A stretch of DNA of 64,000 bases from Trypanosoma brucei (GCA_000002445.1 CM000207.1:352001-416000); one strand, 5' to 3'. Positions 3,478 to 60,002 are shown, numbered from the stretch's first letter. Numbers and translations are program-made. Notes: generated by a model not told the origin, from the letters alone.

Positions 3478-4773
3478 TCAAGTAACTATATGATGCATCG
3501 CACAAATCATATCCCCCAACTTCTCCCGCAGTACCACAGAAGAATCATCCTCCGAAAGATTTTTTTCTACTTCCACCTTTTCTGCCTTTGCATCACCACT
3601 ACTTCCGCCGTGTGAAGCCACACACCATTTTTCAACTGCCTCGTGTATTGCCAATGGTTGCATACGACTAATTGCATTAAAATGATTTGGAGTGCAGGAG
3701 TCATGGGAGGTCGCCATATATTGACGAATATTCATCACGTCCCCATCAATTGCTACCACGGCAGCCATATTTCCATACGTTCCACAGTAATTCGATGCGG
3801 AAAAAACACAAACCACAGCTGGAACTCCCTTCGGGGTGTGACGATACAGTTTGTAACCTCCCGGCTGCGTCTCGTGGCCACGTATGACTGTGCAAAGATT
3901 ATTCGCCTCCAGAAACCGACAAACTGCCTCATAACTGTAGTTGTATGAGCAACCACGTTTGGTATTGAAAACAAACAACTCTTCAGAGGGAGTTGCACAG
4001 TCGGTGTCGTCTCCAAACATGGGATCAGACCAGAGCAAATCGCACATGGGACCCGTCGACGGTGTTTCCCTGAAACGGTTAACAGTGTCAATTTCTCCAA
4101 GATAAGTTAACAATGGCGATAAACCGCCGTGCACACAGAAAAACCTATCATTTACAACACATGAGAGTGGAAAGCAGTCAAACGCTGCCATAATCTCTTC
4201 GTACACCATTGACGAATACTTGCTCTCAATCTCCTGCTTGAAGTTGAAACACGACGTTAGTTGTCGTGATTCGTGATTGCCACGTAGTAGTATGAAGGAA
4301 CGAGGGTACAGTAGCTTAAACGACATGCAGAGGAGTACAATTTCTGCACTAAAATCCCCGCGGTCCACGTAGTCTCCAAGAAAAACATATTGCTGCACGC
4401 TGGGATGACCATTAACTTCTAACAATGTCAGTAAGTCATGAAACTGCCCGTGAAGATCCCCACACACGACAGCAGATCCCTTTAATCGTACAACATTTGG
4501 CTCCTCTTTCATGATTAATGCACAGCGGTGGACAATGTTCAATGCATCCTCTACATGAAGTCGCCATCCTCTCCCAAAATGAACTTTAATATTATCTGCA
4601 AGCGGGGCGCCATCATTATCAAATACCAAATGGTGCGGCAACACGAGAGTCGGAAGTATCTGAGGATTACTGCCGGGAGATTCATCTGCATGAGATTTTT
4701 TCCAAACATATTCCCGTTCCTTCAAACCATCACGCCCACGTGTTAGCTCATGGTGTGAAGCACCACTCGACAT
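3478..4773 (-). CDS. serine/threonine protein phosphatase, PPP family (PP1/PP2A-like catalytic domain) with N- and C-terminal extensions
   Basis: All PPP signature motifs are present in order: GDLHGQ, GDYVDRG, LLRGNHE, VHGGLSP, an RG motif and IRGHE. ATG confirmed at 4771-4773. Confidence 0.85.
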   Translation of the reverse strand: MSSGASHHELTRGRDGLKEREYVWKKSHADESPGSNPQILPTLVLPHHLVFDNDGAPLADNIKVHFGRGWRLHVEDALNIVHRCALIMKEEPNVVRLKGSAVVCGDLHGQFHDLLTLLEVNGHPSVQQYVFLGDYVDRGDFSAEIVLLCMSFKLLYPRSFILLRGNHESRQLTSCFNFKQEIESKYSSMVYEEIMAAFDCFPLSCVVNDRFFCVHGGLSPLLTYLGEIDTVNRFRETPSTGPMCDLLWSDPMFGDDTDCATPSEELFVFNTKRGCSYNYSYEAVCRFLEANNLCTVIRGHETQPGGYKLYRHTPKGVPAVVCVFSASNYCGTYGNMAAVVAIDGDVMNIRQYMATSHDSCTPNHFNAISRMQPLAIHEAVEKWCVASHGGSSGDAKAEKVEVEKNLSEDDSSVVLREKLGDMICAMHHIVT

Positions 4774-5351: not shown

Positions 5352-6746
5352 CTAATCGTCATCGTCTGAAGAAGTTTCTTCAAAGGATGGCTCCTCCTCC
5401 TCCTCCTCCTCCTCAGAGTTGGAGTCGGAACTTCCCCGGCGTGGTCTTTTCTTACCCGCTTTCTTAACTGGTTTCACAACCCTCTTAGTTGGTGCTTTCT
5501 TTGCTGAGCCCGAAGTTGTGGGGGCTTTCTTTGATATACTCGACTTTGATACCGAAGGTTTCAGCGTGGGTTTTCCCGGACCACCGCTTCGTGATGGTTT
5601 TGATTGTGAAGCCTTCCGATCCGCCGGACTTATTTTTAAGCACGCCTCCACGTGTTGTCGGTGCCGCGAAACAACCGCCTTCTTACATATTGGGCACTGC
5701 TCCTCCACAATGCATGTGCCAACAAGTGTATGAAGTTCATCCTGAGCATCAGACTCGCCAGCACGCCGGCGTGCCGCACGTTGTGTGCGCTCAACCGCCT
5801 TTTCCCGTTCCGCGCGCTCGCGCCACTCCTCAAGTCCTACCAAATCAATAAGATGCTGATTTACTGGATAATAAGGAAATCCAAACGCCTTCTTGCACGA
5901 GCCACACTTCACTTCAGTGTCGTACATGGTAACATCGTAATCGAAACCACGTTGGCAGTTTGGACAGGCGTGAAGGGCAGTGGCACATCCAAAGCGGCAC
6001 AGACACGTTTCACAATGCACTTTTTTTCCAGCTGGACCCATAAACAATGTGTAATGTTGCTTGGAATCCGGTTCCCAGGAAGTACGACATTGTGGGCAGC
6101 GCACAACAGTACGATTGTAAATACCACCAACTCGTGGCGTGCCTATTAATGCACGATTCGTAGACACAGATGGAGGAACTGCGGATGCAAGAAACATGAA
6201 ATCCTCATTACCCGCATCACTATCAGCAGTATCCTCTCCATTGGTATCTTCATCCTTGTCGCTACTCATGTCGCCCTCGTCATCGCGAAGAACAAAATCA
6301 TCCTCAACTATTGGTTTCGTCCGCTGTGGTATTATCTTTTTGACTGCTTCTTGCTTTTGCAACGTACTCGTGTGTGTTGTCCCTCTGGCTGCGACCTCCA
6401 CCAGTTGCTTTGGTTTCGCTTTCTTTACTCCTCCCTCAACCGTCTTTCTCTTATTCTTTTGTTTTTCCTCCTTTGCTTTTTGCGCCTGAAGGGTTTTGCG
6501 GTATTTCGGGTCTGCCACCTTCTCAAACGCACGTACCAGTTTCTGAAAGACTTCTGTTGCCTTTTCAAACCGGTTCTTTAGTTTATCCGGGTGGAGAATT
6601 CCCGCAAGTCGAATATAATTACGCCTCGCATCTGCAACCGACGTCTCGATAGTCACCACAGGAAGTTCAGGTGCTAATGAAAGTAACTGCAACACCGCCT
6701 CATCAGGACAGTCAAGAACTGACTGCGCAAGAACCACGACGTCCAT
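5352..6746 (-). CDS. DnaJ (J-domain) protein with a Cys-rich zinc-finger region and a Lys-rich then acidic C-terminal tail
   Basis: N-terminal J-domain with the HPD tripeptide (RLAGILHPDKLKN). Several CxxC pairs follow (CPQCRTSW...CETCLCRFGC...CPNCQRG...CGSCKK...CPICKK). The C-terminus is K-rich and ends in EEEEEEEE...DDDD. ATG confirmed at 6744-6746. Confidence 0.8.
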   Translation of the reverse strand: MDVVVLAQSVLDCPDEAVLQLLSLAPELPVVTIETSVADARRNYIRLAGILHPDKLKNRFEKATEVFQKLVRAFEKVADPKYRKTLQAQKAKEEKQKNKRKTVEGGVKKAKPKQLVEVAARGTTHTSTLQKQEAVKKIIPQRTKPIVEDDFVLRDDEGDMSSDKDEDTNGEDTADSDAGNEDFMFLASAVPPSVSTNRALIGTPRVGGIYNRTVVRCPQCRTSWEPDSKQHYTLFMGPAGKKVHCETCLCRFGCATALHACPNCQRGFDYDVTMYDTEVKCGSCKKAFGFPYYPVNQHLIDLVGLEEWRERAEREKAVERTQRAARRRAGESDAQDELHTLVGTCIVEEQCPICKKAVVSRHRQHVEACLKISPADRKASQSKPSRSGGPGKPTLKPSVSKSSISKKAPTTSGSAKKAPTKRVVKPVKKAGKKRPRRGSSDSNSEEEEEEEEPSFEETSSDDDD

Positions 6747-8345: not shown

Positions 8346-9812
8346 TTAGTCCCAGACAACAGACTTCAAGCGGTTCATAAATCCCACTCGACCAAAAGTG
8401 GAACTACCTTTGCGCAGCGCAAGTCCCCTATTTTCCTCATCACTTACCGTTTCAACCTCTATCATATCCCAATGATCACTTAATGGTTCGACATAAACCC
8501 ACTCCTTTACTTCCCTTCGCTCAGTTTCCGTTTGCTTGTGCATATGACGTTGCACAATTTCTACAATAAGGGGAGCCTTCGCTTGTATAAAAGGATGCTC
8601 ACGTATCACCGCAACAGTGGCACGTTCAAATGAGTTTGTTTTCACTAATGACTCCACAAGCGACTTGGCATCATCCGATACATTGGCCCAATGCGGACCG
8701 ACGCAGCGGATGCCTTTCAGCATATTTTGGTAAAGAGAACTAAAGCATCGCGTAGCCACAGGCATATGACCACACAACAAAACATATGCTACAACACCTA
8801 AGCTGTACATATCCGCAAGATGCATCGTCTCTCCCAACGCCTCATACACACGGCGACGTTCCACGACAGCGCGTATATTCTCTGGAGAAGTGTAACCTGC
8901 GGTTCCACAAGGTACAAAAAGTTGTGTTTCGCACTGTTTCACATACTCCGCAAGGCCAAAGTCGATGATCATCACCCTTTTGAAGTCGTGCGAAAGAACG
9001 ATGTTTTCAAGCTTTATATCACGATGCACTATTCCTTTCTTGTGGTAAAGGTAGTCAAGACCTTCTGCCACCTGCAGGACAACATTTGCCACAAGAACTT
9101 CTACGTCGTATTTATATTCCTTAGCTAACCTCCATGCTTGCATGAGCGAACCGCCATCACCTGCTTCCATAACAATAACAAGGTGATGTGGTGTCTGCAA
9201 TACCTCCAATAGTTTTGCAACATTATGATGATCCACATCTTGCATTATTTCCAACTCTGTTACAATTTTCTTCCACGAACGATAGGTCACAACCGATGCT
9301 TTAGTTATTACTTTAAGTGCCACACGCCTTCTACAGGGATAACTCCGGTCTTCGCATTTATACACAGAGCCAAACCCACCTTTACCAATCATAGCTCCCT
9401 CAAAGAATGTTGGGAAGCGGTCTGTTATACTTTCATAATAAACATAATCTCCAACATTGAATTCAGAGAGGGATGTGTAACATGAATGCATGAGTGCGTT
9501 AATGCTGCGGCTGTCGAGAAATGACATAATGAGACGCGCCACGCTTCCATCACGCTTCCCCGTACGTAAGTTACGCAAACTTCTAAACACAGCGGGAAAC
9601 TTGCAGGAGTTGCACCGCCGTAAGCGTCGCCCACCATATGTAGCAGTGCATGGGGCACAATTGTCACAAAATATCCGTCCACACCACTGGCAGTGTTGTT
9701 TACTGACGAGTAGTGAAAACTTCTTGCGGCACAGGCGGTTCTCACAGGCATCTGTTGAGCACCAGTCGCGTCGCTGCTCACCGGGAATTACTAATTCATG
9801 CTCCCCGCGCAT
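8346..9812 (-). CDS. protein kinase (CAMK-like Ser/Thr kinase) with an N-terminal FYVE-like zinc finger
   Basis: Kinase subdomains GKGGFGSVYKC, VALKVI, HRDIKLENIVL, DFGLAEY and GTAGYTSPE are present. The N-terminal block WCSTDACENRLC...KQHCQWCGRIFCDNC...RRCNSC has FYVE-like spacing. The ORF track begins at a TTG codon (9834-9836); the first in-frame ATG is at 9810-9812 (MRGEHELVIPG...). Confidence 0.8.
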   Translation of the reverse strand: MRGEHELVIPGEQRRDWCSTDACENRLCRKKFSLLVSKQHCQWCGRIFCDNCAPCTATYGGRRLRRCNSCKFPAVFRSLRNLRTGKRDGSVARLIMSFLDSRSINALMHSCYTSLSEFNVGDYVYYESITDRFPTFFEGAMIGKGGFGSVYKCEDRSYPCRRRVALKVITKASVVTYRSWKKIVTELEIMQDVDHHNVAKLLEVLQTPHHLVIVMEAGDGGSLMQAWRLAKEYKYDVEVLVANVVLQVAEGLDYLYHKKGIVHRDIKLENIVLSHDFKRVMIIDFGLAEYVKQCETQLFVPCGTAGYTSPENIRAVVERRRVYEALGETMHLADMYSLGVVAYVLLCGHMPVATRCFSSLYQNMLKGIRCVGPHWANVSDDAKSLVESLVKTNSFERATVAVIREHPFIQAKAPLIVEIVQRHMHKQTETERREVKEWVYVEPLSDHWDMIEVETVSDEENRGLALRKGSSTFGRVGFMNRLKSVVWD

Positions 9813-9832
9813 GACTGCACAACTTAACACAC

Positions 9833-9836
<4 letters not shown>

Positions 9837-11033: not shown

Positions 11034-12403
11034 AATAATACCACAGGTGTGTAGAGTTTCAATATACCCTTCCTTGCAAAATCCGTATGATCATGTTCAC
11101 AGAACCAAAAAATAAATAAATAAATAAATAAAGAGGAAAACAAGCACAATTCACATATTTAATTCCCACACCCAACATGGTGAAAAGAACAGTAGGCGGA
11201 GACTCGTCCTTTCCCGGTTATATACCACAAAGAATAAAAATAAAATACATGTATATTATATATAAATATAAATAGACTCGGCACAACATGCTGGATTGCC
11301 GCATACGCGCACACCCACACCGGATGAAATGGATGAAGGCATAACACGATGTTCCCCCACCTCCTCAAAGGAAAGGAAAGGAAAGGAATCATGAAGGGAT
11401 GAACGAAGAGGAAAAGCAGGAAACAAAAACAAAAACAACAACAACAATATATATATATATATACCTTTCTTCCTTTTCATATCATTCCCTTAGCAGCGCA
11501 AACAGCATTGCGGTGTACAGATCTTCAACTAATCTCATCCTCTGGTCGAGTGACGCGAAATAATCAAAAACAAAAACAAAAAGTGAAATAAAGAATTTTT
11601 TTTCATGATTAAGAGAGCAAGGAAAAAGGGAATGTCCCATACAATTTCTGGGGAATTGTGATTTTGCCGCACCGACCGCTTTTTTTTTCTTTTTATTTTT
11701 TCTTCCTTCCTTCGTTATGCACGCATGTTTTAGTAGTAGCAGGTGACTCTTCAATATTCTAGCAATAACCTCCGTGGTAAACCGTGGGAAAACGGTGGTA
11801 ATGTTAGTTTACGGTGAGGAAAAATGGGGGGGAATAAACGACACAGCCCCTCAATCGTCATGATAAAAATATTAATAAACAAAAAAACATGGTGAAAAAA
11901 AAAATGTGAAGCACCAGTACCGATTAACAAAAAGATATGAATGAGCAAAAAAGAAAAAGAAAGAGAAGAGCAAAAAAAAGGAGAAGGGTGCGAATCTTCG
12001 CAACGATCGCACAATTCAGCAGGCTAAAAGAGACATGACAAAAAAAAAAAAGAAATAAATATACGCTCATATATATATATATATGACGGAACGGTACCAA
12101 CGAATGCCTTGTTTCTCTAGCACAAAAGGTTTGCACCGCGCATATATGGTAATATCATGTGCTGAATAAAAAGATTTCCGCGTGCGAGCACCCGCACAAA
12201 CACACGGAAAGACTCCACACACAAAAAAAAATAATAATAAACACCCAATAAAGTGGTAGATGGAAATATGAGGCCACACACCCAACAGGCGCCCTTTTCA
12301 TCCAAGGAAAATTAACAATAAAATTAACAATAACAACAAAGAAAGAAATGGAAAAGAAAAGCGGTAACGCGCAGTTCATGCCTTATAGTCACACGACAGC
12401 GCA

Positions 12404-15400
12404 TTACCGCAGGTCTTCTGACACCTCCGCAACAGTGTGAGAGTGTCGGTCCTTTATTTTCTTCGACGATGTCCTCTTCTTTGTATGACCGCTGCTTCCT
12501 CTATCCTTTTCATCTGCTCCTATCTCTATTTTTGTCGCACTATTTCGTGATTTTTTGTGCGACATTTTGGTTTGAACAGCGTTGAGGTTGAGTAGGGCTG
12601 CTTTTTCCATTTCTTCTGAGAAAGGGTACTGAATTCCAATTCGGTCTGCCATGGCCATGTACTCCGCTAATTTGTTCTTCATGGGAACAACTTCCCCAGC
12701 AAGCATCTGCAGTTCCGCCTTCAGTTGCTCAACAGAGGCGTCATCACCTCCCTCTTTTTTGCGCAGAGCCTCCCTGGCTTGCCTAAGTTTAGAGCGCAAC
12801 CGTTTGTTCTCTGTCGTGAGCAGTTGCAGCTTTTTATCCGCTCCATCACCATTTACTGTTTTCTCGTCAACAGGGAGAATAGATGCGACTGGTTCAGCGG
12901 CACTCTCCAACTGCTGCTCAAGTTGTTGAATCTTTTCCTGCAACTCTTCCACCTGCCTCTCCAGGTCGTTTGTTGTGTAATCCTGCATTATACGCAGCTT
13001 CTCTGTGAGGTCAGCAATACTTTCCTTCAGCTTCCCATTTTCCTCTTGCAAAACCGATAGTTTGTCGTTAGATTCTTTCAGTTGCGCAGCCAAACTCTCA
13101 GCCTCCCTCTCATTTCCAACACTGCGATATGACGGGCTATCAGCACCGTGCGCCAGTACGTCCACCGCAGGGCCGTCATCAAAGCGAACAAGCGATAAGA
13201 GGTCGGTGTTTGGTTGCTTTTTCTTCTTTCTCCTGACTGGCAATGTAACAGCACCACTGACAATTTGTTCAGCACGCGCTGTTTGCAGCTTTTCTTCAAG
13301 TTGTTCGATGCGCCTACGCATAGCCGCTGCATCATCGTCTAACTTCTTCCTCTCTTCTTCAAACCTTTCATTGACCTCTGCAGAACTTCGTTCCTGCTCC
13401 TCTAACTGCCGATGTGCCTCTTTAAGAGTAACCCTTAACTGATCTACTTGTACACGCAGAGCAGTAACATCCGAATCTTCCGCCGCAGCGGATGAAGCTC
13501 GAGCAGCAACGCCACCGGCGGCTTCTGTGGATTGACGCAATTTGTCAAGTTCGCTTTCGATATGCAACCGCTCTTCTTCGACTTGATGCAACTGGGCACA
13601 CAACCTTCCACTTTCATTCTCGTACCTCTGCCTTTCTTCTGCTATGCGAACCTCCATCTCCAACTCCTTTTCATGCCGAACTGCCTCCAATTGATCATTT
13701 ACAGTTACCATTACACGACGTAGCTCCTCCTTCACGGCCTCCAACTCACTGCTAGTCGCCACTATCGTGGAGAGCAACTTTTCTTCTTGATTAGACTTTT
13801 CCTCCACCAAGCACTGATATTTATTCCTTTCCAGCTCAAGCGCGCGGTACTCATCCGTTAACTTTGCCATCTTCTCGTTGGTATTGGTGCACATCGCGGT
13901 TTCAGAGGCTAGACGCTCGGCAATTAATCCTAATTCAGCGGAGTGAGCAGAGCGAATTTGTTCGTTTTGCCTCAGTTGCTCCTCGTTCTCTGCCTCCAGT
14001 TCGTCAATCGTTTGACGGTACACCAAAAGCTCGGAGGTGAGCCGATCAATATCAGAAACCATTTGTTGGTTTTCGCTTACAAGTCTCGTGTTCTCGACCA
14101 TTACCGAGCGAATATCGTCAGGAACAAAGCTGTTACTCTCTAACTGTGCAGCAACGGTCCCTTCGCTTGCAACTGCGCGCTCACATTCGACTCCGCCAAC
14201 ACTAGTCCTTTGTTCAACACAGGCCCCAACGCCTTTGGTATCGTTAGCACCTCCACACTGCCGCATAACTTCTTCCATACGAAGCTGCAGTTCGTTTAAT
14301 TGGCCTTCGAGTGTAGTATTCTGGCCGCACAGTTTGTTATTTTCTTCCATCAGGCGACACACCTCCACACGAAGTTCCGCGCTTTCTTTCACAAGCGCAG
14401 CAACCTCGTCCTCACGCGACTTAAGAGTTTGCCTCTGGTTGTCTACAGTGTCCTGAAGACTCGCTCTCTCCGAACCCACACGTTGCAAGTCTGCTTGTGT
14501 TTCCCCCAGTTGCACTTTCACAGCTTGTAAAGAGAATTCCAGTGCCGTGCACCGTGCCTCAGTGTCACTTCCCGTATTCTGTCTTTGTGCTTCCTCTAAC
14601 TGAGTGATTTCTTCCCTAGCTTTTAACAATGCTTTTTCCGACTCCTCAGCACAAGAAAGACGCTCTCGTAACGTAGAAACCTCTTGCTGTAGCTCAGCTA
14701 CGCTTGTCTCAAATTGTGGTATTTTTTCTGCTTGCATGCGAGCCCTGTCAAGCTCCAACTGAGCTGCTTCGTAGTCACGAGAAAGCTGATCCCTTTCCAC
14801 CCTCAAGTTGTTGATATCAGTCGTAAGAGTTTCACATTGTGCCTCCAGCCCACGAAGCCGCTCCTCGTCATGTTCTTTTGTGGTTGCGAAGTAGGTTGCT
14901 TCCTCTTTCATTGCGGAAGATAGATCCGTCAGCTTCCCATTTTCTTCAGTAACTTGGGCAAGACGCGACTCCAAGATTGAAATCTTCTCCATTGCAGCCT
15001 CGTGTTGGTGTTGAGCGTCCTCGCAATTTTTGCACGATTTTGGCTCATTCATCGAGGCAGTCAGTAGCGTATCAACATCATAACTGGGTGCAGTCAGTTT
15101 TGCCTCCGCAGAACAACTCTCATTTTGTCTGATCCTATCTTCCAACTCTCTCAGTTTTTCGGTTAATGCCCTGTTCTCGGCTTCCACGTCCTTGTGCATG
15201 CTTGATTCAGTGGCAAGGTTTTCACGCAGATCTTCCAGCTCCTGTTCGTACCGTGTTATCTTGTCATGTAATTCCTGCTGCTTCTGCTCTGCGACGCTGG
15301 CACTGTCACATTCCTCCCTCGACGCTTGAAGCTCCCATTGTTGTTGAGTTAACTCCGCGGTTTTTGCTTGTAGTTCCGCTTGTAGTCGCTGTAGTTGGTC

Positions 15401-17221
15401 CCTCAATTCATCCTCTCGTATGCGATGCCGGTCAACCTCACTTCGTAAATCGTTGAACACCAAACTATTGGCCTCCAGTTCTTCCATACGAAGCTGCAGT
15501 TCGTTTAATTGGCCTTCGAGTGTAGTATTCTGGCCGCACAGTTTGTTATTTTCTTCCATCAGGCGACACACCTCCACACGAAGTTCCGCGCTTTCTTTCA
15601 CAAGCGCAGCAACCTCGTCCTCACGCGACTTAAGAGTTTGCCTCTGGTTGTCTACAGTGTCCTGAAGACTCGCTCTCTCCGAACCCACACGTTGCAAGTC
15701 TGCTTGTGTTTCCCCCAGTTGCACTTTCACAGCTTGTAAAGAGAATTCCAGTGCCGTGCACCGTGCCTCAGTGTCACTTCCCGTATTCTGTCTTTGTGCT
15801 TCCTCTAACTGAGTGATTTCTTCCCTAGCTTTTAACAATGCTTTTTCCGACTCCTCAGCACAAGAAAGACGCTCTCGTAACGTAGAAACCTCTTGCTGTA
15901 GCTCAGCTACGCTTGTCTCAAATTGTGGTATTTTTTCTGCTTGCATGCGAGCCCTGTCAAGCTCCAACTGAGCTGCTTCGTAGTCACGAGAAAGCTGATC
16001 CCTTTCCACCCTCAAGTTGTTGATATCAGTCGTAAGAGTTTCACATTGTGCCTCCAGCCCACGAAGCCGCTCCTCGTCATGTTCTTTTGTGGTTGCGAAG
16101 TAGGTTGCTTCCTCTTTCATTGCGGAAGATAGATCCGTCAGCTTCCCATTTTCTTCAGTAACTTGGGCAAGACGCGACTCCAAGATTGAAATCTTCTCCA
16201 TTGCAGCCTCGTGTTGGTGTTGAGCGTCCTCGCAATTTTTGCACGATTTTGGCTCATTCATCGAGGCAGTCAGTAGCGTATCAACATCATAACTGGGTGC
16301 AGTCAGTTTTGCCTCCGCAGAACAACTCTCATTTTGTCTGATCCTATCTTCCAACTCTCTCAGTTTTTCGGTTAATGCCCTGTTCTCGGCTTCCACGTCC
16401 TTGTGCATGCTTGATTCAGTGGCAAGGTTTTCACGCAGATCTTCCAGCTCCTGTTCGTACCGTGTTATCTTGTCATGTAATTCCTGCTGCTTCTGCTCTG
16501 CGACGCTGGCACTGTCACATTCCTCCCTCGACGCTTGAAGCTCCCATTGTTGTTGAGTTAACTCCGCGGTTTTTGCTTGTAGTTCCGCTTGTAGTCGCTG
16601 TAGTTGGTCCCTCAATTCATCCTCTCGTATGCGATGCCGGTCAACCTCACTTCGTAAATCCCTAAACATAACATTTTTTGATTCATCTTCGTCCTGAGCA
16701 ATACGAACAGTGACTGCAAGTGGACTACGACTTATAACCTCTTGTTGGTCACGCACAACCGCAGAGAGCTTTTGAACGTTGGCGTGCCCCTGCTGGACCT
16801 CCATCAGTAACTTTTGCACTTCGCCATTGGATGAGGTGTGCTGGGCTCGGAAGTCGGTGAATTCCTTGCACAAATTGTCTAATAACTTCTGCAGGTTTTC
16901 CGGCGTGGCTGTCTTTGAGCTTCCAAACAATTTAAACTTATCCCGTTCATAAAGTGCTTTAAGCACAGGTGTTTCGGAAAATATGTTGGTACTATAAGTT
17001 TCACACCTCACTTGCATCTCCGCTACAGTTCCAGAAAGTTTTGCATTCTCATCACATACCTTTGTAAGCACGTCCGTGAGCGACTTATTCTCCCGCTCGA
17101 GTTGCTTAACCCGCTTGACCAGTGCATCGGCCTCTTCAGTGGATTGCACAATTTGTATTGCCTTTACAGGTTGCTGCGCCGTCGGGCCGTTGTCCACATC
17201 GCAGTGTCCGGATGCCTCCAT
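12404..17221 (-). CDS. large coiled-coil protein (1605 aa) containing two in-frame tandem copies of a 403-aa unit
   Basis: Heptad-rich, E/Q/L/R-rich sequence throughout. ATG confirmed at 17219-17221. Residues from about 188 to about 993 are two identical 403-aa units (DLRSEVDRHRIREDELRDQLQRLQAELQ...LQLRMEE). No motor or enzymatic domain recognised. Confidence 0.8.
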   Translation of the reverse strand: MEASGHCDVDNGPTAQQPVKAIQIVQSTEEADALVKRVKQLERENKSLTDVLTKVCDENAKLSGTVAEMQVRCETYSTNIFSETPVLKALYERDKFKLFGSSKTATPENLQKLLDNLCKEFTDFRAQHTSSNGEVQKLLMEVQQGHANVQKLSAVVRDQQEVISRSPLAVTVRIAQDEDESKNVMFRDLRSEVDRHRIREDELRDQLQRLQAELQAKTAELTQQQWELQASREECDSASVAEQKQQELHDKITRYEQELEDLRENLATESSMHKDVEAENRALTEKLRELEDRIRQNESCSAEAKLTAPSYDVDTLLTASMNEPKSCKNCEDAQHQHEAAMEKISILESRLAQVTEENGKLTDLSSAMKEEATYFATTKEHDEERLRGLEAQCETLTTDINNLRVERDQLSRDYEAAQLELDRARMQAEKIPQFETSVAELQQEVSTLRERLSCAEESEKALLKAREEITQLEEAQRQNTGSDTEARCTALEFSLQAVKVQLGETQADLQRVGSERASLQDTVDNQRQTLKSREDEVAALVKESAELRVEVCRLMEENNKLCGQNTTLEGQLNELQLRMEELEANSLVFNDLRSEVDRHRIREDELRDQLQRLQAELQAKTAELTQQQWELQASREECDSASVAEQKQQELHDKITRYEQELEDLRENLATESSMHKDVEAENRALTEKLRELEDRIRQNESCSAEAKLTAPSYDVDTLLTASMNEPKSCKNCEDAQHQHEAAMEKISILESRLAQVTEENGKLTDLSSAMKEEATYFATTKEHDEERLRGLEAQCETLTTDINNLRVERDQLSRDYEAAQLELDRARMQAEKIPQFETSVAELQQEVSTLRERLSCAEESEKALLKAREEITQLEEAQRQNTGSDTEARCTALEFSLQAVKVQLGETQADLQRVGSERASLQDTVDNQRQTLKSREDEVAALVKESAELRVEVCRLMEENNKLCGQNTTLEGQLNELQLRMEEVMRQCGGANDTKGVGACVEQRTSVGGVECERAVASEGTVAAQLESNSFVPDDIRSVMVENTRLVSENQQMVSDIDRLTSELLVYRQTIDELEAENEEQLRQNEQIRSAHSAELGLIAERLASETAMCTNTNEKMAKLTDEYRALELERNKYQCLVEEKSNQEEKLLSTIVATSSELEAVKEELRRVMVTVNDQLEAVRHEKELEMEVRIAEERQRYENESGRLCAQLHQVEEERLHIESELDKLRQSTEAAGGVAARASSAAAEDSDVTALRVQVDQLRVTLKEAHRQLEEQERSSAEVNERFEEERKKLDDDAAAMRRRIEQLEEKLQTARAEQIVSGAVTLPVRRKKKKQPNTDLLSLVRFDDGPAVDVLAHGADSPSYRSVGNEREAESLAAQLKESNDKLSVLQEENGKLKESIADLTEKLRIMQDYTTNDLERQVEELQEKIQQLEQQLESAAEPVASILPVDEKTVNGDGADKKLQLLTTENKRLRSKLRQAREALRKKEGGDDASVEQLKAELQMLAGEVVPMKNKLAEYMAMADRIGIQYPFSEEMEKAALLNLNAVQTKMSHKKSRNSATKIEIGADEKDRGSSGHTKKRTSSKKIKDRHSHTVAEVSEDLR
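14270..16660 (-). repeat. near-perfect direct tandem duplication, unit 1209 bp, about 1.98 copies, inside the coiled-coil CDS and in frame
   Basis: Sequence at 14272 onward (cttccatacgaagctgcagttcgtttaattggcc...) recurs at 15481 onward, offset 1209 bp. The plus-strand sub-ORFs 14300-14530 and 15509-15739 translate identically, as do 14714-14923 and 15923-16132. Identity ends at 16660/16661, where tcgtaaatc is followed by cctaaacat versus gttgaacac. The left boundary is near 14270. Confidence 0.9.
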
Positions 17222-18015
17222 TTGTCTCTACGATGATGGCACCTACCTTTCTATGTTTATTAGAAGATCGGTAGTTATCTTCAACGTATTGTTAGTATTA
17301 TTTTTTTTATATTAAAAAAAAAAAGCGTCGGCGTATGTGCGACGAGGCGTGGTGACGGGTCCAGTCGTCACGTCACTTTGTATGGTTTCTAAATGATGGC
17401 AAGGGCACAATGATGACAACGAGGTATAGAAAAAGACGAACAGAGGATAAAAAAATAATTTAAAACAAAAATTAGAGGGTTGTGTGGATGGCATTTTACG
17501 TACTCACAAACGTTGTCATTGTGACAAGCAAAATTATCGTACGTTTTATGTCCGCAAATGAAAAAGTGAAGTAAGAGTGTGGAGAAGAGGGGAAGAGAAA
17601 AAAATTCCACACCAATAAAAGGAGATAGATAGAGGAACGCCGCGCTTACCGGGGAAAGCGTGTGTTGTGTAGTGCAGTGCATTTATCAAATCCCTTCACC
17701 TTTAATTGAGACTTAGGGAGAGTTGTTCCGTGGCCGTTAAACACATATTCCAGTGGACAACACCGATCCCAACAGACTCCACATCGTTCAACCATTTGCT
17801 TTTCATTCCATGCTGCTGTGCAAACGCGGTAAATGCGGCACCGAGACAAATATTCCCAAACCAGCGTGTCCATGTAAGAGGGAAGGGATGAAGAAGTAAA
17901 CACTAAACTTAAAGATGAATCACCCTACGATATACAGGGAACTACAAAAAAAAAGGCGGGGGAAAATATGACAATACCGCTTCCACATTCCATGCCTCCT
18001 TTAACACACAACTCC

Positions 18016-18669
18016 TCACTGGCGGCTTCCCGCAGCATCCAGAACCGCCAGATGATACATGCTATCCAGCAGCTGTTGCACATTCACCACCTGCTTGAAA
18101 GCACTCAACGCGGCTGTCAAAGCCATAAAGAACAGAAACGCAGGTTCAGCGATCCCATACACGCCGTACATATATAAGTTTAAGTAGAAAAGTTCCTGTC
18201 CGACGCAAAGTGCACACATAAACGGACGATTTGTATAATAAAGTCGCAGAAGTGAAAAAATACTGCTGCTCACGTCCTTATGACTAGTACGGCCAGCATA
18301 AAGCGACACGTACATGACGCAGAAATGCGAAGAAATATCCAGGAAAACAAGACATGCAAGCGAAGTGGCTCCCCAATGTGGAAGCGGTTGTAATACCTGC
18401 ACAACCACAACAATCAAACCAGCCGTTGACGCCCGATCCGTCAACATATCAAGTATCGCACCAAACTGTGTGCATTGGCCAAACCGTCGCGCTACCATGC
18501 CATCCACCGCGTCCAGCACAAAACCAATGATGTAACAAAATAAAAATGCAATGGGAAAGTGGCCGAGCAAGCAGAAGGAAATCAATGAAAGAATAACGCG
18601 TGTGTAGCCAATGAGGTTAGGGTAAAACAAACATACCTGCAGTGGTGTGGTAGTTTTAGCTTTCGGCAT
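18016..18669 (-). CDS. PIS: CDP-diacylglycerol--inositol 3-phosphatidyltransferase (phosphatidylinositol synthase)
   Basis: Exact CDP-alcohol phosphatidyltransferase motif D-G-x2-A-R-x8-G-x3-D-x3-D in DAVDGMVARRFGQCTQFGAILDMLTDR. Collinear similarity to human CDIPT (FYPNLIGYTRVILSLISF, FGAILDMLTDRAST, LRLYYTNRP...GQELFY). 217 aa, the size of a PI synthase. ATG confirmed at 18667-18669. Confidence 0.9.
   Translation of the reverse strand: MPKAKTTTPLQVCLFYPNLIGYTRVILSLISFCLLGHFPIAFLFCYIIGFVLDAVDGMVARRFGQCTQFGAILDMLTDRASTAGLIVVVVQVLQPLPHWGATSLACLVFLDISSHFCVMYVSLYAGRTSHKDVSSSIFSLLRLYYTNRPFMCALCVGQELFYLNLYMYGVYGIAEPAFLFFMALTAALSAFKQVVNVQQLLDSMYHLAVLDAAGSRQ

Positions 18670-19729: not shown

Positions 19730-19734
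<5 letters not shown>

Positions 19735-19771
<37 letters not shown>
19735..19771. repeat. (TA)n microsatellite, about 37 bp
   Basis: Uninterrupted tatatata... run in the intergenic region. Confidence 0.9.
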
Positions 19772-32830: not shown

Positions 32831-35026
32831 TTACGCATCCTCTCGAAGGCTAATAACTAAGGCATTCTCCGGTGCGGCATTGCTCGCGCGCCATTGTACA
32901 TCAGCGGAGCAACGTGGGCACCGCGGAATCAGCTTTGAGGGGCGCACATCACCAATCACACTCGTCTTATACCTACAGTGCTCACACTGAATGAAGCGAC
33001 GTACTGTCTCCCGTGTCTCAACAATGTGTCCTAGCGATTTGCACCGTTCGTTGCGACGTAAATACCAGCGGTCACATTGCCGACAGTAATGTGCCTTTAA
33101 CTTCTGCTCTGTAACATCAGCCAGCGCCTCCAGTGCTTTGTCCTGCTGAAGTAGCCGCTCGGCCTGCCGTTCAAGTCGCTGACGCTCGTCTAAAGCACGC
33201 AGTTCGTCATTGACACTATGAAGTGACTCTGCAACTTTTCCCAGCAGAGACGCGGGGGGAGGTGCAGAACCACCAGTCTTGTTGGCGGTAGTTTCTCGCA
33301 GCCTCACTTCCTCTTGCCCTACAGAGGATCGTCCGGCAAATTTAGCCAATGAACCTTCAGCACGCAGTTGCCGCTCAACAACGTTAACAATAGCACTGCG
33401 TGTACCCTTTCCCCCCTGCGTGGTAACACCACTATTGTAGCTATTTCTCCCTGTCAAAATTGCGTCACCACGGCGACCTCCCCGCAGGGGAGCGAAGGCT
33501 GAACGGTCGTGAGGGGCGCTAAGTGGGGCAAACTTTTCGCGGACCTCCACCCACGGTGGTTGTTCACAGCCTTCACGTGGTCGTTTGGTCCCCCGCTGAC
33601 TCGGATGAAGGGCAAGGCGAAGAAGGCGATCGAAATTCTTTGCTTCCTCCGCAGCGGCGGCAGCCCCAAGCACAGCACGACCTTGGGTTCCTACGCCAAT
33701 CTGCGTAGGGATATAGCTAGAGGTCATACCTTTACCATCGCCGTTGCTTAGCAGACGCTTCGCGTTCTGGGCCACGTCGTTAACAGGAAGTACGTCGCCT
33801 GCGACAACACCCGCGTAGGCGTTTCCCGCAGCCATAACATCTGCTGATGCAGGAGTTGATGCGGGTAAGCCAGTGGATCCCCTCACCGTGAGAAAGCCGA
33901 GTTTTTGGCGCCGCAAAGCTTGTGACGACGTTTTGGAGGCGGTTATTTGGGCAGACTGGAGAGTCGCCAGATTTATGCACGTTAACGCCGGCGCACTCAA
34001 TCGAGCTGTCCCCAAGGGCTGTGACCGGAATTTGCCACTAACACCGGGGGCAGCACCGCGTGCCTCACGCTGAAGGTTGGCCATATGATGTGCACAATAA
34101 TTCGATAACGACTTATTGACGATATTTTTACAGAGCTCTCCAGACCGTTGCTGAGTACCCTGACATGTAGCAAGGTCTGATGCGAAGCCCAGTACACGTA
34201 CCTGGTCGCATGTGGTAACCTTTAAAATTCCGCAGTCGCCACTCGCGGTAGAGCCCCCACTTGTGGTGGCGTTGAAAGTTGTCTTTCCTACACTTTGATT
34301 TTCCATCCGCTGCATTCCTGACACCGCCAACACCAAACCGCTCAGAATCCTCGTGTAATGTGTATCAAATGCAGACCCGCCAAGAAGAATGGCCACCTCG
34401 CCAGCAGGGCTCACAAATGGTCCTTTCATATCCCACAAGTAGACAACACCGTATCCACGCCCGGTAGACGCTCGCTTTGGCTCCGTCTTATGGACCACCA
34501 CACCAACAACAGTACTGGGGGGCAATGAGTTTCCTCCAGCTGACTTAACAGATCGTCGAAGTCCTTCAAACGTGGTAAAGGGATGCTGCGCCAAAATGAC
34601 GGCCAATTGCTCGCAACTTCGCGTTGGTCGACTAACTTTAATATTGCTGTTGGGCTCCCGTACGATTCCTAACTGCGGCTTCCTAATTGGGGCATCATCC
34701 ACACCTCCTTTTGCAGTGGGAGTTGCCGTGACAACACTCATGAACGAAGCGGAGGGGTTGGTACTGCCTTCTGCCCCACTAAAAGTTTTATTTGCTGGAA
34801 AGACACTTGTGCCGAGGTCGTGCAGTGCAAGCCGAGATACAACGGGGTCTTCCATAGCAGCAGTCACTTGACTGAGACGACTAGCCTGTGAGTTTGGCGC
34901 CACGCCGATTGTGGAATCAACCGACCCACTCACATTTCCACTGGGGTCATGGAATACCGCAAAAAGATCCTCATCGCTTCGATCGTCACTGTCACTTGGA
35001 CTTCTCTTCCCCTCACTTCGTGCCAT
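32831..35026 (-). CDS. MCM10: MCM10 (DNA replication initiation factor) homolog with OB-fold/CCCH zinc-finger core and a C-terminal Cys-rich zinc ribbon
   Basis: Collinear with the human MCM10 internal domain: VVGVVVHKTEPKRASTGRGYGVVYLWDMKG versus GVVIKVLSKSEPKQTKNGRDYSIWTLSDL. The zinc finger C295-x10-C306-x11-C318-x2-H321 (DLATCQGTQQRSGELCKNIVNKSLSNYCAHH) matches the MCM10 CX9-10CX11CX2H signature. The C-terminus has CRQC...CEHC...CPRC. The ORF-track start at 35045-35047 is TTG; the first ATG is at 35024-35026 (MARSEGKRSPS...). Confidence 0.75.
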   Translation of the reverse strand: MARSEGKRSPSDSDDRSDEDLFAVFHDPSGNVSGSVDSTIGVAPNSQASRLSQVTAAMEDPVVSRLALHDLGTSVFPANKTFSGAEGSTNPSASFMSVVTATPTAKGGVDDAPIRKPQLGIVREPNSNIKVSRPTRSCEQLAVILAQHPFTTFEGLRRSVKSAGGNSLPPSTVVGVVVHKTEPKRASTGRGYGVVYLWDMKGPFVSPAGEVAILLGGSAFDTHYTRILSGLVLAVSGMQRMENQSVGKTTFNATTSGGSTASGDCGILKVTTCDQVRVLGFASDLATCQGTQQRSGELCKNIVNKSLSNYCAHHMANLQREARGAAPGVSGKFRSQPLGTARLSAPALTCINLATLQSAQITASKTSSQALRRQKLGFLTVRGSTGLPASTPASADVMAAGNAYAGVVAGDVLPVNDVAQNAKRLLSNGDGKGMTSSYIPTQIGVGTQGRAVLGAAAAAEEAKNFDRLLRLALHPSQRGTKRPREGCEQPPWVEVREKFAPLSAPHDRSAFAPLRGGRRGDAILTGRNSYNSGVTTQGGKGTRSAIVNVVERQLRAEGSLAKFAGRSSVGQEEVRLRETTANKTGGSAPPPASLLGKVAESLHSVNDELRALDERQRLERQAERLLQQDKALEALADVTEQKLKAHYCRQCDRWYLRRNERCKSLGHIVETRETVRRFIQCEHCRYKTSVIGDVRPSKLIPRCPRCSADVQWRASNAAPENALVISLREDA

Positions 35027-36393
35027 TCCAAAGGGGATCGGGCCCAACTATCTTACCTTTAGCTTTGCTATCCTGGGTTCCTAACGATTCACTTCCTTCC
35101 CGACGAACTCGCCAACGTGAATGCGGCTTTTAAAACAACAAATTCTGGCACACGTGGAGCCCACTGAATAACAAAAAAAAACGCTGTGTTTGCGCACCGC
35201 ATGGACAAGGGAAAGGAAAGGGGATAAAAGCGTATGGAAATGTAAATGATTTGAATAAGCAGCAGCATGCAAGGAAACATGTTGAAAGGACTGTGCAGTG
35301 GACCGCAGGGTGGGGAAATGTGTGGTGCGGGCACCAAAACAAAATATTGATATCGGACGAGCAAACATCCTCACTCTGAAGTTGGTACATCTAAAAACTC
35401 GCCTCACATACACAAGAAAACATAAAAAAGGGGGGAAATTATAAACGGAGAAATAATAAGGGGAATAAAATACAGTCTTCTATTTCATTCCCGGAACATC
35501 TAGTTCTCACTTACAAACTCCCACACACCTCTCGCACGCAGTTTTTCACTCAGCCACGCACAAAATCATATAATTACATACATTCACGGACCAGTCTTTC
35601 CTCATACCAAAGACAAAGTGAGGACGGGCACAAGTGCATACAGGTTGCACTAATTTCCCCTCTATTTCCTTCTCACTGCATGTCAAAACTTCCCCACCAC
35701 AAATGTGACAGGCAGAAATATGGACTTGTAATCGGGAGTGCGTGTGCGCACAGATACACACACGCATGAACTCGTGCCTCCAAATCCCCCCCCCTCTTTT
35801 TTTCTCCAGCGAAGTACTCATATTTGACGAAACAAAAAAAGGGATAATTACCCGCCCCCGCAGAAAGGGAGGGGGAAAACATTATATACATACATGACAA
35901 AAGGCACACAAACTAGTGGAGCTGGAGGTAGTTTGCTTGATCAAAGGTGGAACACAAGGATGAACAAATGAGCTCTAGCGAAAAATTCACATACAAGCAC
36001 AAAAAGAGTCCATGCGCGAGCTCAACACCTTGATGAACAAGAGGACACTAAATCATACATTAACAAGTAGAAAAGAGAATGCGCTCGTACAGAGTCAAAG
36101 AAAAATTAAAACTGTGATGGTCCATAATATTTCTCAAGCTGCTCGTCTACCATCTTCCCATACCCTCAGTTTCTTCTTCACAGAGCTTGCCACTGTCTAA
36201 AGATGTTTGAAATTGCATTACATTCATGTGACAACAAAGCGGAGGGGAGAAACGAGAACGAACGAACATGAGCAACGAAAAAAAAAAAGCACGAGGTGGA
36301 AAAACATGTAGCACCGCTCACACCATCAATTTTACAGATCACAAGTTTACTTCAGCTGCTACACGGTACGAGAACGCCCAAATCAATCCATGA

Positions 36394-49833: not shown

Positions 49834-51011
49834 CTTACTTTTGTAATATACCAACCTGATCTTCCCTCACCTTCCCCCTTTCCTCTTCCTTATTTACAAA
49901 TAGTGATCCGTACTGTTTCCCTTCCTCTCTCCCTGATTAGTCACTATTCCTCCCCCTCAATTCCTTCCGTTCTTGAGCGGATGTCCCTTTTTCTCTAGAT
50001 GAATGTGCCGGAACAAACTTTTTGCCGGGCAGTCTCTTGTCGTGTTGCGTGCCCCCTTTCAGTTACCATGCAACGTAAGACAACAGTAGCAGGTGGGAAG
50101 TACAAATGGACAACAGAAACGAGACGGGACAACAACGAATATCCCCTCTCTACGACTCCGTCGTACACTCCGTCTTCCTTTTTTGGTTTGTTTCTCACCC
50201 TGCTGCAATAACGGAAGTAGCCACCAAAAAAAAATCGGAGCCCAAGAAATTAAAGAAAGGCAAAGATGCAAATGTGACGAAAGCGGTAGGAAATCGAAAC
50301 AGCAACTTGGGTTAGGATGAACAGAGCGAAAAGGAAAGGTGGCACATAGGTATTCACAGCCGTGGGCCTCAATTTATGAGAAGGAGGTGAAAGAACATGT
50401 TAAACAGAAAAAAGTGTAAGCACTTCAGCACGAAAAAGTGGAAACCTAAGGTGTGGTAGACAACAAAAAAACGCTAAAACAAAAAAGAATTAGGTCCACG
50501 CACACTTGCGCTTGTGTAAAACAGTCTCCGAGATAACAACTCCTAAAAAGGAACAAAAGAACGGGGCATGGAAAACAAAAAACAAGTGAAAACGGTCCTC
50601 AGTATACGTAACGGTGAGGAAGGACGTGATGTACCCGCTCCGACGGCCACGCATCCCGCACTGACAGGAGAGAGGTGGGAGTGGGGAAGAGTGCGAATCA
50701 ATCGTGACACACATCACGGAAGGGGCACCACATATGCCACAGCAACAGAAAACATATTTTGCGCCCTGAGAGACACATATCGCCTTGCGGTGGGCCCCCA
50801 GGCACCCTCAGGTGTAGACACACACGACGGAGTTTGTGAGTTTACTATAAACAAAGAAAATAAAAAAGAGAATCGGCAACCAACATTTCGCTTCCTTCCT
50901 CCGATCTAGGGTCCCCGTCAAAACCTCTAGTGGGAAAAGAAAAGTGAGGCAACGATCACGACAATGCTACAGAAGAAAGACATAAAATGGAAATGAGGCG
51001 GCGTCCCAGTC

Positions 51012-59945: not shown

Positions 59946-59965
59946 TTCAGAAAGCAAACAATGCA

Positions 59966-60002
59966 CTGAAGGAACAATAACCCCCCCCAAAAAAAAAACA
60001 AG
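59966..60002 (-). promoter_or_regulatory. polypyrimidine tract plus AG dinucleotide: candidate spliced-leader trans-splice acceptor for the HECT ligase gene
   Basis: Minus strand reads cttgtttttttttttggggggggttattgttccttcAG, followed 20 nt later by the first ATG (59943-59945). This is the standard kinetoplastid pre-mRNA processing signal. Confidence 0.5.

What the first reader, a model, noticed from the sequence alone, without database searches (positions are those of the whole stretch)
14270..16660. In-frame, essentially identical 1209-bp tandem duplication inside a 1605-aa coiled-coil gene
Two adjacent 1209-bp units (1209 = 3 x 403 codons) are identical at the resolution I can read, as are the six-frame sub-ORFs they contain. 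The encoded protein therefore carries two perfect 403-aa coiled-coil modules. Perfect identity over 1.2 kb means either a very recent duplication, ongoing concerted evolution or gene conversion, or an assembly artefact where the true copy number is higher or lower. Large tandem-repeat coiled-coil proteins in trypanosomes are typically cytoskeletal or flagellar, and their repeat number is often strain-variable.
Basis: seen in the sequence. Interest (0 to 1): 0.6.

Follow-up and report, generated by a model that had tools for sequence, protein, structure and literature searches.

The report
In-frame 1.2-kb duplication, trypanosome coiled-coil gene
A Trypanosoma brucei gene for a long rod-shaped protein of unknown function contains a real in-frame 1.2-kb internal duplication whose two copies are kept identical by ongoing DNA exchange; this is a tidy but ordinary case of repeat evolution in a published reference genome.

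Summary
Window 14270-15451 and 15479-16660 are 1182 nt and 100% identical. They are offset by 1209 nt (3 x 403) and separated by a 27-nt segment that is not repeated. The protein therefore has two perfect 394-aa modules joined by a 9-aa linker, not two perfect 403-aa modules.

The window is T. brucei brucei TREU927 chromosome 9. The 1605-aa ORF is XP_803449.1, "hypothetical protein, conserved".

The same junction and linker occur in T. b. gambiense DAL972, a separately assembled shotgun genome, and in T. equiperdum OVI, where the first copy is an assembly gap. Twelve nucleotide differences between TREU927 and DAL972 sit at the same positions in both copies. Only one difference is private to a single copy. 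This is the signature of concerted evolution, not of a single very recent duplication.

Orthologues at the same chromosomal position in T. vivax, T. grayi and Leishmania carry the module once. T. vivax has instead expanded a short 51/81-nt array in the same central region.

The family is kinetoplastid-specific, matches no Pfam family or solved structure, and has no known function. The exact copy number still needs long reads. This is a new member of a known kind, of low to moderate interest.

The parts
12404..17221 (-). 1605-aa coiled-coil gene. It is identical to T. brucei brucei TREU927 XP_803449.1 / EAN76283.1 / UniProt Q38FY7, 'hypothetical protein, conserved'. The TriTrypDB ID is probably Tb927.9.1590, possibly Tb927.9.1600.
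   Evidence: ORF listing. Exact-sequence cluster look-up. Neighbouring genes anchored to published IDs: Tb927.9.1540.1560.1570 and .1610.
15479..16660 (-). Repeat copy A, the 5' copy in the gene: gene nt 562-1743, protein aa 188-581 (DLRSEVDR...ELQLRMEE).
   Evidence: 100% identical to 14270-15451 over 1182 nt.
15452..15478 (-). 27-nt unique linker between the copies (aa 582-590, LEANSLVFN). It is either a strongly diverged copy of the 27 nt upstream of copy A or junction filler.
   Evidence: Boundaries. It matches the upstream 27 nt at 13/27 (p about 0.02-0.04) and the downstream 27 nt at 9/27. It is identical in TREU927, DAL972 and T. equiperdum.
14270..15451 (-). Repeat copy B, the 3' copy in the gene: gene nt 1771-2952, protein aa 591-984.
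16682..17164 (-). Conserved N-terminal domain of the kinetoplastid family, about aa 20-180. It lies outside the duplication.
   Evidence: Alignment A1: 25-51% identity to the T. brucei sequence across trypanosomes, Leishmania, Bodo saltans and two unnamed Logan sequences. Family alignment.
16232..16243 (-). CxxC motif (CKNC, aa 327-330) in the non-helical break of module A. The second copy is at 15023-15034 (aa 730-733).
   Evidence: A CxxC at the homologous place is read by eye in T. grayi, T. cruzi marinkellei, T. vivax, Leishmania and three Logan sequences. The AF2 model is non-helical across most of aa 305-329.
15023..15034 (-). Second copy of the CxxC motif (aa 730-733), in module B.
12620..12673 (-). 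Conserved C-terminal motif KLAEYMAMADRIGIQYPF (aa 1517-1534), the family's most conserved short element.

Best explanation
The feature is a genuine in-frame tandem duplication of a roughly 1.2-kb segment of the central rod of a kinetoplastid-specific coiled-coil protein. It arose in the T. brucei lineage.

Shown:
- The two 1182-nt cores are identical in TREU927.
- They differ at one site in T. b. gambiense.
- The two subspecies differ from each other at 12 further sites, and each of those differences is present in both copies.

Inferred: the copies are repeatedly homogenised. The mechanism would be gene conversion or unequal sister-chromatid or homologue exchange between the two misaligned units, i.e. 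concerted evolution.

Inferred: the 27-nt linker lies at the edge of the homologous tract, beyond the reach of exchange. It is either the eroded margin of an originally 1209-nt unit or filler inserted at the junction.

Inferred for the protein: the duplication adds 403 residues that are almost all helical. That is about 55-60 nm of extra rod if the region is a continuous coiled coil (0.148 nm per residue is textbook geometry). It also adds a second copy of a hinge carrying a conserved CxxC motif. The conserved N-terminal domain and C-terminal motif are untouched.

Whether the extra length is adaptive or nearly neutral is not known. The T. brucei orthologue is the most divergent in the family and evolves under weak constraint.
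For: - Repeat geometry and frame.
- Identity of the locus: exact match to TREU927 XP_803449.1.
- Same architecture in DAL972: 1605 aa, no N in the locus, and the copies differ at one site only. DAL972 contigs came from an eight-fold capillary whole-genome shotgun and were ordered against the 927 reference (PMC2854126, read).
- Concerted pattern: 12 TREU927/DAL972 differences at unit positions 120-897 occur in both copies, and one (position 39) is private to DAL972 copy B. Within-genome divergence is 0 and 0.08%, against about 1.0% between subspecies.
- T. equiperdum OVI keeps the end-of-copy / linker / copy B junction. A 10-N gap begins exactly where copy A should start.
- The duplication is lineage-specific. 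The module hits T. grayi, T. cruzi marinkellei, T. vivax, Leishmania and the Logan relatives only once. The T. vivax, T. grayi and L. guyanensis genes are syntenic, lying directly downstream of the CDP-alcohol phosphatidyltransferase gene. T. grayi and Leishmania have no DNA self-repeat of 200 nt or more.
- Helical rod: the AF2 model gives helices 182-234, 238-304, 330-430, 432-478 and 484-599. Heptad periodicity.
- Gene conversion and concerted evolution among tandem duplicates are documented in T. brucei (PMC1855330, listed but not read; cited as reference 31 in PMC2854126).
Against: - All the evidence comes from assemblies. The unit (1.2 kb) is longer than a capillary read.
- TREU927 chromosome 9 is a shotgun consensus of two homologues (PMC2854126). 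Perfect identity could therefore be partly a consensus effect, and the true copy number could be above two.
- Only two complete alleles were compared, so the number and direction of exchange events cannot be estimated.
- The T. congolense orthologue could not be retrieved, so the age of the duplication is bounded only loosely: after the split from T. vivax and before the divergence of the T. brucei subspecies.
- The linker's homology to the upstream 27 nt is weak (13/27, p about 0.02-0.04).
- No functional or localisation data could be tied securely to the gene.
Confidence: 0.75

Rival explanations
1. Assembly artefact. The real locus has one copy, or more than two, or two diverged copies. The perfect two-copy structure would then be produced by shotgun assembly of a repeat longer than the reads.
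For: - The unit is 1182-1209 nt, longer than capillary reads.
- TREU927 chromosome 9 was assembled from whole-chromosome shotgun data holding both homologues (PMC2854126).
- The T. equiperdum assembly breaks exactly at the start of copy A, with a 10-N gap. This shows that assemblers struggle at this site.
Against: - The copy-end / linker / copy-start junction can only exist if at least two units are in tandem. It is present in three assemblies from three projects.
- DAL972 gives the same 1605-aa length and resolves one copy-specific SNP, so its copies were not simply pasted.
- The structure is exactly in frame, and the linker is unique sequence.
Confidence: 0.12
2. A single very recent duplication with no later exchange. 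The copies are identical only because there has been no time to diverge.
For: 0/1182 differences in TREU927. The duplication is absent from every non-brucei orthologue seen.
Against: - The same junction and the same 27-nt linker occur in TREU927, DAL972 and T. equiperdum. The event therefore predates the divergence of these alleles.
- Since that divergence, 12 substitutions have ended up in both copies and only one in a single copy. Independent evolution after one event predicts copy-private differences only.
- If the 27-nt linker is a diverged copy of the upstream flank, it is about 50% diverged while the core is 0% diverged.
Confidence: 0.08
3. Identity is maintained by strong purifying selection on both modules, not by DNA exchange.
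For: The module contains elements conserved across the family: the CxxC hinge and the KAKETIAYMEL-like motif.
Against: - Selection on the protein cannot hold synonymous sites identical. Four of the 12 shared inter-subspecies differences are synonymous and are still present in both copies.
- The gene is weakly constrained, with dN/dS about 0.6-0.7 between subspecies.
Confidence: 0.02

Closest known systems
Concerted evolution of tandem duplicates in T. brucei (tandem gene arrays; Jackson 2007, PMC1855330; Jackson et al. 2010, PMC2854126)
   Same: Head-to-tail duplicates are more alike within a genome than between subspecies. Subspecies-specific variants are shared by all copies. The mechanism is attributed to gene conversion or unequal exchange.
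   Different: The published cases are arrays of whole genes, thought to raise dosage in polycistronic units. Here the two units lie inside one reading frame, so the result is a longer protein and not more mRNA. This gene is not mentioned in the parts of PMC2854126 read here (PMC1855330 itself was not opened), and its candidate IDs occur in no searchable main text.
Repetitive cytoskeletal proteins of trypanosomes, such as the MARPs with about 38-aa repeats and FAZ1 with 14-aa repeats (named from my own knowledge, not checked here)
   Same: Large structural proteins with in-frame, near-identical tandem repeats in a trypanosome.
   Different: Those proteins carry tens of short units. This one has two very long units (403 aa), each containing a substantial part of the ancestral protein. 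The T. vivax orthologue, with 28 units of 17 or 27 aa, resembles that class more closely than the T. brucei protein does.
Unnamed kinetoplastid orthologue group: T. grayi XP_009310384.1, T. cruzi marinkellei EKF34013.1, T. vivax KAH8618798.1, L. braziliensis XP_001562472.1, Bodo saltans CUG90824.1
   Same: Shared N-terminal domain of about 165 aa, a YRQTI-ELE-EN-E motif and a C-terminal EYMAMADR(I/L)G-YPF motif. The trypanosomatid members checked are syntenic, lying next to the phosphatidylinositol synthase gene.
   Different: Only the T. brucei-group proteins carry the 403-aa module twice. T. brucei has also lost about 100 aa around the CxxC region and has degenerated several family motifs.
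Rad50 zinc hook: a CxxC at a break in a long coiled coil (resemblance recalled from memory; a lead only)
   Same: A conserved CxxC sits in a short non-helical break inside a long helical rod.
   Different: There is no sequence or profile similarity to Rad50 or SMC proteins. The motif is missing from two family members. Metal binding and dimerisation are entirely untested.

Membership tests
Kinetoplastid orthologue group of XP_803449.1 (unnamed conserved coiled-coil protein) | Conserved N-terminal domain of about 165 aa (LTKVC-EN ... GWFGGSK ... SH-S-N-EVQAL ... GPLAV) | tested here: met
   Alignment A1: 25-51% identity to the T. brucei sequence, with 12 invariant columns. phmmer E-values range from 1.7e-95 to 3.4e-15 for named kinetoplastid proteins.
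Kinetoplastid orthologue group of XP_803449.1 (unnamed conserved coiled-coil protein) | C-terminal motif EYMAMADR(I/L)G-x-YPF and mid-rod motif (I/L)L(I/V)YRQTI-ELE-EN-E | tested here: met
   Both are present in T. brucei, at aa 1517-1534 and aa 1065-1081, and in most members.
Kinetoplastid orthologue group of XP_803449.1 (unnamed conserved coiled-coil protein) | Conserved gene order: immediately downstream of the CDP-alcohol phosphatidyltransferase (PI synthase) gene | tested here: met
   The same neighbour is seen in the window, DAL972, T. equiperdum, T. vivax, T. grayi and L. guyanensis.
Tandem duplicates under concerted evolution | Copies are more similar within a genome than orthologous copies are between genomes | tested here: met
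   Within-genome differences: 0/1182 (TREU927) and 1/1182 (DAL972). Between genomes: 12-13/1182, with 12 differences present in both copies.
Tandem duplicates under concerted evolution | The duplication predates the lineages compared (same breakpoints and junction) | tested here: met
   Identical 27-nt linker and identical boundaries in TREU927, DAL972 and T. equiperdum.
Tandem duplicates under concerted evolution | Direct evidence of exchange: conversion tracts, mosaic copies or copy-number polymorphism among strains | not testable with these tools
   Only two complete alleles are available. No long-read or population data could be reached.
Classical trypanosome short-unit repetitive cytoskeletal proteins (MARP / FAZ1 type) | Many copies (tens) of a short unit (about 14-40 aa) | tested here: not met
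   There are two units of 403 aa. TRF and the k-mer offset analysis find no short-period array in the T. brucei gene.
Myosin heavy chain (UniRef name of the T. cruzi marinkellei orthologue K2MFC5) | Myosin motor (head) domain | tested here: not met
   No Pfam family reaches its threshold in the T. brucei protein or in P0007. No hit to any PDB chain. The name reflects coiled-coil composition only.
Rad50-like zinc hook | CxxC at the apex of an antiparallel coiled coil, coordinating Zn between two chains | not testable with these tools
   A CxxC in a helix break is present and mostly conserved. Neither the topology nor metal binding can be assessed here.

The most novel reading that the evidence does not exclude
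The central rod of this kinetoplastid-specific protein may act as an evolvable spacer, its length reset independently in different lineages by in-frame tandem expansion. The expansions seen are:
- T. brucei: 2 x 403 aa.
- T. vivax: 28 units of 17 or 27 aa.
- Bodo saltans: about six copies of a roughly 79-aa unit.

On this reading, the T. brucei duplication adds about 55-60 nm of rod and a second CxxC hinge. It would change the geometry of a cytoskeletal structure, possibly one associated with the flagellar pocket, and copy number would vary among strains.
Probability: 0.12. Interest if true: 0.5.

Novelty: new member of a known kind. Interest (0 to 1): 0.25.

Why it matters
The practical value is as a caution about this locus. 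The gene model contains a 1.2-kb perfect repeat that short reads cannot resolve. The T. equiperdum assembly breaks at exactly this point. Copy number, SNP calls, RNAi or CRISPR targeting and peptide quantification at this gene all need care.

It is also a clean small example of concerted evolution acting inside a reading frame in T. brucei, with subspecies-specific variants copied into both units. It shows that this conserved kinetoplastid protein tolerates large lineage-specific changes in rod length.

It does not open a new class of mechanism, and the protein's function remains unknown.

Tried and rejected
- Two of the three word-indexed protein searches failed. The N-terminal 187 aa found nothing, not even the 97%-identical DAL972 protein. 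The N-terminal profile A1 found a single fragment. T. congolense, T. evansi and other close relatives therefore could not be retrieved. The orthologues came from the exhaustive representative search instead.
- An exact-product look-up of the window protein in the contig collection returned nothing, so no further TREU927-like assemblies were obtained.
- Pfam on the protein and on six orthologues gave only sub-threshold coiled-coil noise: ATG16, CALCOCO1, TPR_MLP1_2 and a zf_Tbcl hit at E = 0.048 over the CxxC. phmmer against PDB sequences gave no hit. A fold search was not run, because the model is long helices with pTM 0.26 and would only return generic coiled coils.
- Full-text searches for Tb927.9.1590, Tb927.9.1600, old-style Tb09.160.05xx IDs and Q38FY7 found no main-text mention. 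Phosphoproteome and PLK-proteome supplements gave nothing.
- TrypTag source data list Tb927.9.1600 as 'flagellar pocket, ventral'. I could not establish that this ID belongs to the 1605-aa gene. A 97-aa ORF (102 aa in the DAL972 annotation) lies between it and Tb927.9.1610, and sequential numbering would make the big gene Tb927.9.1590. The localisation is not used as evidence.
- Simple junction models for the linker were tested. It is neither a copy of the downstream flank nor a clean chimera of the downstream and upstream flanks.
- The 38-nt 'inverted repeat' at 19734-19771 is only an (AT)n microsatellite.

Full report
**What is in the sequence**

The ORF 12404-17221 on the minus strand encodes 1605 aa. 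I compared every base between 12000 and 18000 with the base 1209 positions further on. This gives a single unbroken run of identity from 14270 to 15451. So 14270-15451 equals 15479-16660: 1182 nt without a mismatch.

A self-BLASTN of the whole window shows this is the only long repeat in the 64 kb. The period, 1209 nt, is 403 codons, so the reading frame is preserved.

The 27 nt between the copies (15452-15478) are not repeated. They match the 27 nt upstream of the first copy at 13/27 positions and the 27 nt downstream of the second at 9/27.

In the protein, aa 188-581 equals aa 591-984, and the two blocks are joined by LEANSLVFN. The description needs only this correction: two perfect 394-aa modules plus a 9-aa linker, not two perfect 403-aa modules.

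**Where the window comes from**

The 1605-aa product is identical to XP_803449.1 / EAN76283.1 / Q38FY7 of Trypanosoma brucei brucei TREU927, annotated 'hypothetical protein, conserved'.

Of the 19 ORFs of at least 180 aa in the window, 18 lie on the minus strand. The exception is a plus-strand ORF inside the 4486-aa gene. This is what a kinetoplastid polycistronic unit looks like.

Four neighbours can be tied to published gene IDs:
- The Metallophos gene at 3478-4773 is TbCaNA1, Tb927.9.1540.
- The DnaJ-like gene at 5352-6746 carries the acidic C-terminal sequence quoted for Tb927.9.1560.
- The FYVE-kinase at 8346-9836 fits Tb927.9.1570.
- The 217-aa CDP-alcohol phosphatidyltransferase at 18016-18669 fits PI synthase, Tb927.9.1610.

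The gene is therefore Tb927.9.1590 or Tb927.9.1600. I could not decide which. Neither ID appears in the main text of any paper in the library.

**Is it real or an assembly product?**

Three assemblies carry the diagnostic junction (end of unit, linker, start of unit).

T. b. gambiense DAL972 has a 1605-aa orthologue with exactly the same layout. There is no N in the locus, and one nucleotide distinguishes its two copies. DAL972 was sequenced by eight-fold capillary whole-genome shotgun, and its contigs were ordered against the TREU927 reference (PMC2854126).

In T. equiperdum OVI the gene runs 1-561, then a 10-N gap that begins exactly at the start of copy A. It then continues with the last 32 nt of a unit, the same linker, a full copy B and the rest of the gene. 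That is how a short-read assembler breaks at a two-copy repeat. It confirms the tandem junction independently.

What the assemblies cannot prove is that the number is exactly two, or that identity is truly 100% within one haplotype. The unit is longer than a capillary read, and TREU927 chromosome 9 is a shotgun consensus of both homologues.

**Recent duplication or concerted evolution?**

TREU927 and DAL972 differ at 44 of 4818 gene positions. The resulting 99.1% identity is close to the 99.2% coding average reported for the two genomes.

Within the repeat, 12 differences at unit positions 120-897 occur at the same position in both copies. One difference (position 39) is private to DAL972 copy B. 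Eight of the 12 are non-synonymous and four are synonymous.

The linker and both boundaries are identical in all three taxa, so the duplication event is shared and predates these alleles. If the copies had then evolved independently, the differences would be copy-private. Instead they have been copied across.

This is the classical signature of concerted evolution by gene conversion or unequal exchange. At least one homogenising event is needed in each lineage. The fact that synonymous differences are shared rules out protein-level selection as the cause of identity. The same process is documented for tandem gene arrays in T. brucei (PMC1855330, listed but not read; cited as reference 31 in PMC2854126).

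The linker may be the eroded edge of an original 1209-nt unit. At protein level, ANSLVFN|DLR resembles the upstream KNVMFR|DLR, and also the ENISLA|DLR and ERVSLV|DLR of T. grayi and T. cruzi marinkellei. This evidence is weak (p about 0.02-0.04), and junction filler remains possible.

**How old and how widespread?**

An exhaustive phmmer search with aa 1-600 found 13 representative proteins. Those with names are all kinetoplastid proteins: T. grayi, T. cruzi marinkellei, T. vivax, Leishmania (Viannia) species and Bodo saltans. Several unnamed Logan assemblies also matched.

The T. vivax, T. grayi and L. guyanensis genes sit directly downstream of the CDP-alcohol phosphatidyltransferase gene, with the same kinases around them. 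They are positional orthologues.

The T. brucei module matches each relative once only, collinearly. The T. grayi and Leishmania loci contain no DNA self-repeat of 200 nt or more. Among the genomes I could reach, the duplication is therefore specific to the T. brucei group. T. congolense could not be retrieved.

The same central region has expanded independently elsewhere:
- T. vivax carries about 1.8 kb of 51-nt and 81-nt units, giving 28 protein repeats of 17 or 27 aa.
- Bodo saltans carries about six copies of a roughly 79-aa unit.

**What the protein is**

No Pfam family reaches its threshold in the protein or in six orthologues. No PDB chain matches by sequence. The UniRef name 'Myosin heavy chain' on the T. 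cruzi marinkellei orthologue has no motor domain behind it.

A single-sequence AF2 model of aa 1-600 has mean pLDDT 68. It makes the module almost entirely long helices (182-234, 238-304, 330-430, 432-478, 484-599), interrupted at about aa 305-329 by a mostly non-helical stretch. Hydrophobic periodicity of 3.5 residues recurs along the protein. So 'coiled-coil rod' is a fair description.

The family is defined by four elements:
- An N-terminal domain of about 165 aa.
- A KAKETIAYMELAQS motif.
- A YRQTI-ELE-EN-E motif.
- A C-terminal EYMAMADR(I/L)G-YPF motif.

The helix break in the module carries a CxxC that is present in most family members. The duplication doubles it.

T. brucei is the most derived member. 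It lacks about 100 aa around the CxxC region and has degenerated several motifs: GWFGGSK has become FKLFGSSK, and KAKETIAYMELAQS has become KAREEITQLEEAQR. Its dN/dS against DAL972 is about 0.6-0.7, based on few substitutions.

The likely consequence of the duplication is structural: about 55-60 nm more rod and a second hinge, with both conserved termini intact. Whether that matters to the cell is unknown.

**Verdict**

The interpretation narrows to a real duplication specific to the T. brucei group and homogenised by concerted evolution. A residual assembly caveat about exact copy number remains.

The sequence has been public since 2005, but I found no description of the repeat. It is a new member of a known kind and of modest interest.

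Noticed in passing
L003:9672-11445 (T. vivax, syntenic orthologue of the gene): The T. vivax orthologue has its own in-frame tandem array of 51-nt and 81-nt units, giving 28 protein repeats of 17 or 27 aa (aa about 545-1150). It lies in the same central rod region that T. brucei duplicated. This is an independent expansion.
   Followed up: partly
P0012 (Bodo saltans CUG90824.1, 2352 aa), aa about 590-1180: The free-living relative also has about six copies of a roughly 79-aa unit (RLVEAQEVIADHESQLGQTVSLQNFL...) in the rod. This is a third independent repeat expansion in the family.
   Followed up: partly
window 16232-16243 and 15023-15034 (-): A CxxC motif (CKNC) sits in the only sizeable non-helical break of the module. 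By eye it is conserved at the homologous place in T. grayi, T. cruzi marinkellei, T. vivax, Leishmania and three of the five Logan relatives. The duplication gives T. brucei two of them. It is reminiscent of a zinc hook, but this was not tested.
   Followed up: partly
window 17389-17682 (-): A 97-aa ORF, annotated as a 102-aa gene in DAL972, lies between the coiled-coil gene and PI synthase. It makes the gene ID ambiguous (Tb927.9.1590 versus Tb927.9.1600). TrypTag source data list Tb927.9.1600 among four 'flagellar pocket, ventral' proteins (PMC9981465, supplementary file 15). If that ID is the big gene, it would give a localisation.
   Followed up: partly
window 12404-17221 (-) versus the orthologues: The T. 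brucei protein is the most divergent family member. It has about 100 aa deleted around the CxxC region and several family motifs degenerated. dN/dS against T. b. gambiense is about 0.6-0.7, with 6 non-synonymous and 1 synonymous change in the first 187 codons.
   Followed up: partly
P0007 (T. cruzi marinkellei EKF34013.1 / UniRef K2MFC5): The orthologue is named 'Myosin heavy chain' in UniRef, but no Pfam family, and so no myosin head domain, reaches E <= 0.001. The name is likely an annotation artefact of coiled-coil composition.
   Followed up: yes
L003:12520-13218 and L004:11312-12301: In T. vivax and T. grayi the conserved C-terminal part of the orthologue is called as a separate downstream gene in another frame (232 aa and 329 aa). 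This is probably a frameshift or assembly error that splits the gene model.
   Followed up: partly
window 36394-49854 (-): A 4486-aa ORF made largely of fibronectin type III-like repeats (Pfam fn3 E = 3.6e-113). It has no near-identical DNA repeats, in contrast with the homogenised duplication in the coiled-coil gene.
   Followed up: no
window 51012-60026 (-), 61927-63825 (-), 32831-35047 (-): A 3004-aa HECT ubiquitin ligase with SPRY and RanBP zinc-finger domains, a Sec1-family protein, and a protein with a primase zinc finger. These are ordinary neighbours in the same polycistronic unit.
   Followed up: no
window 19734-19771 and 12308-12333: An (AT)19 microsatellite, which self-BLAST reports as a 38-nt palindrome, lies in an intergenic region. 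A 12-nt unit repeated 2.2 times (AAAATTAACAAT) lies just downstream of the gene's stop codon.
   Followed up: yes
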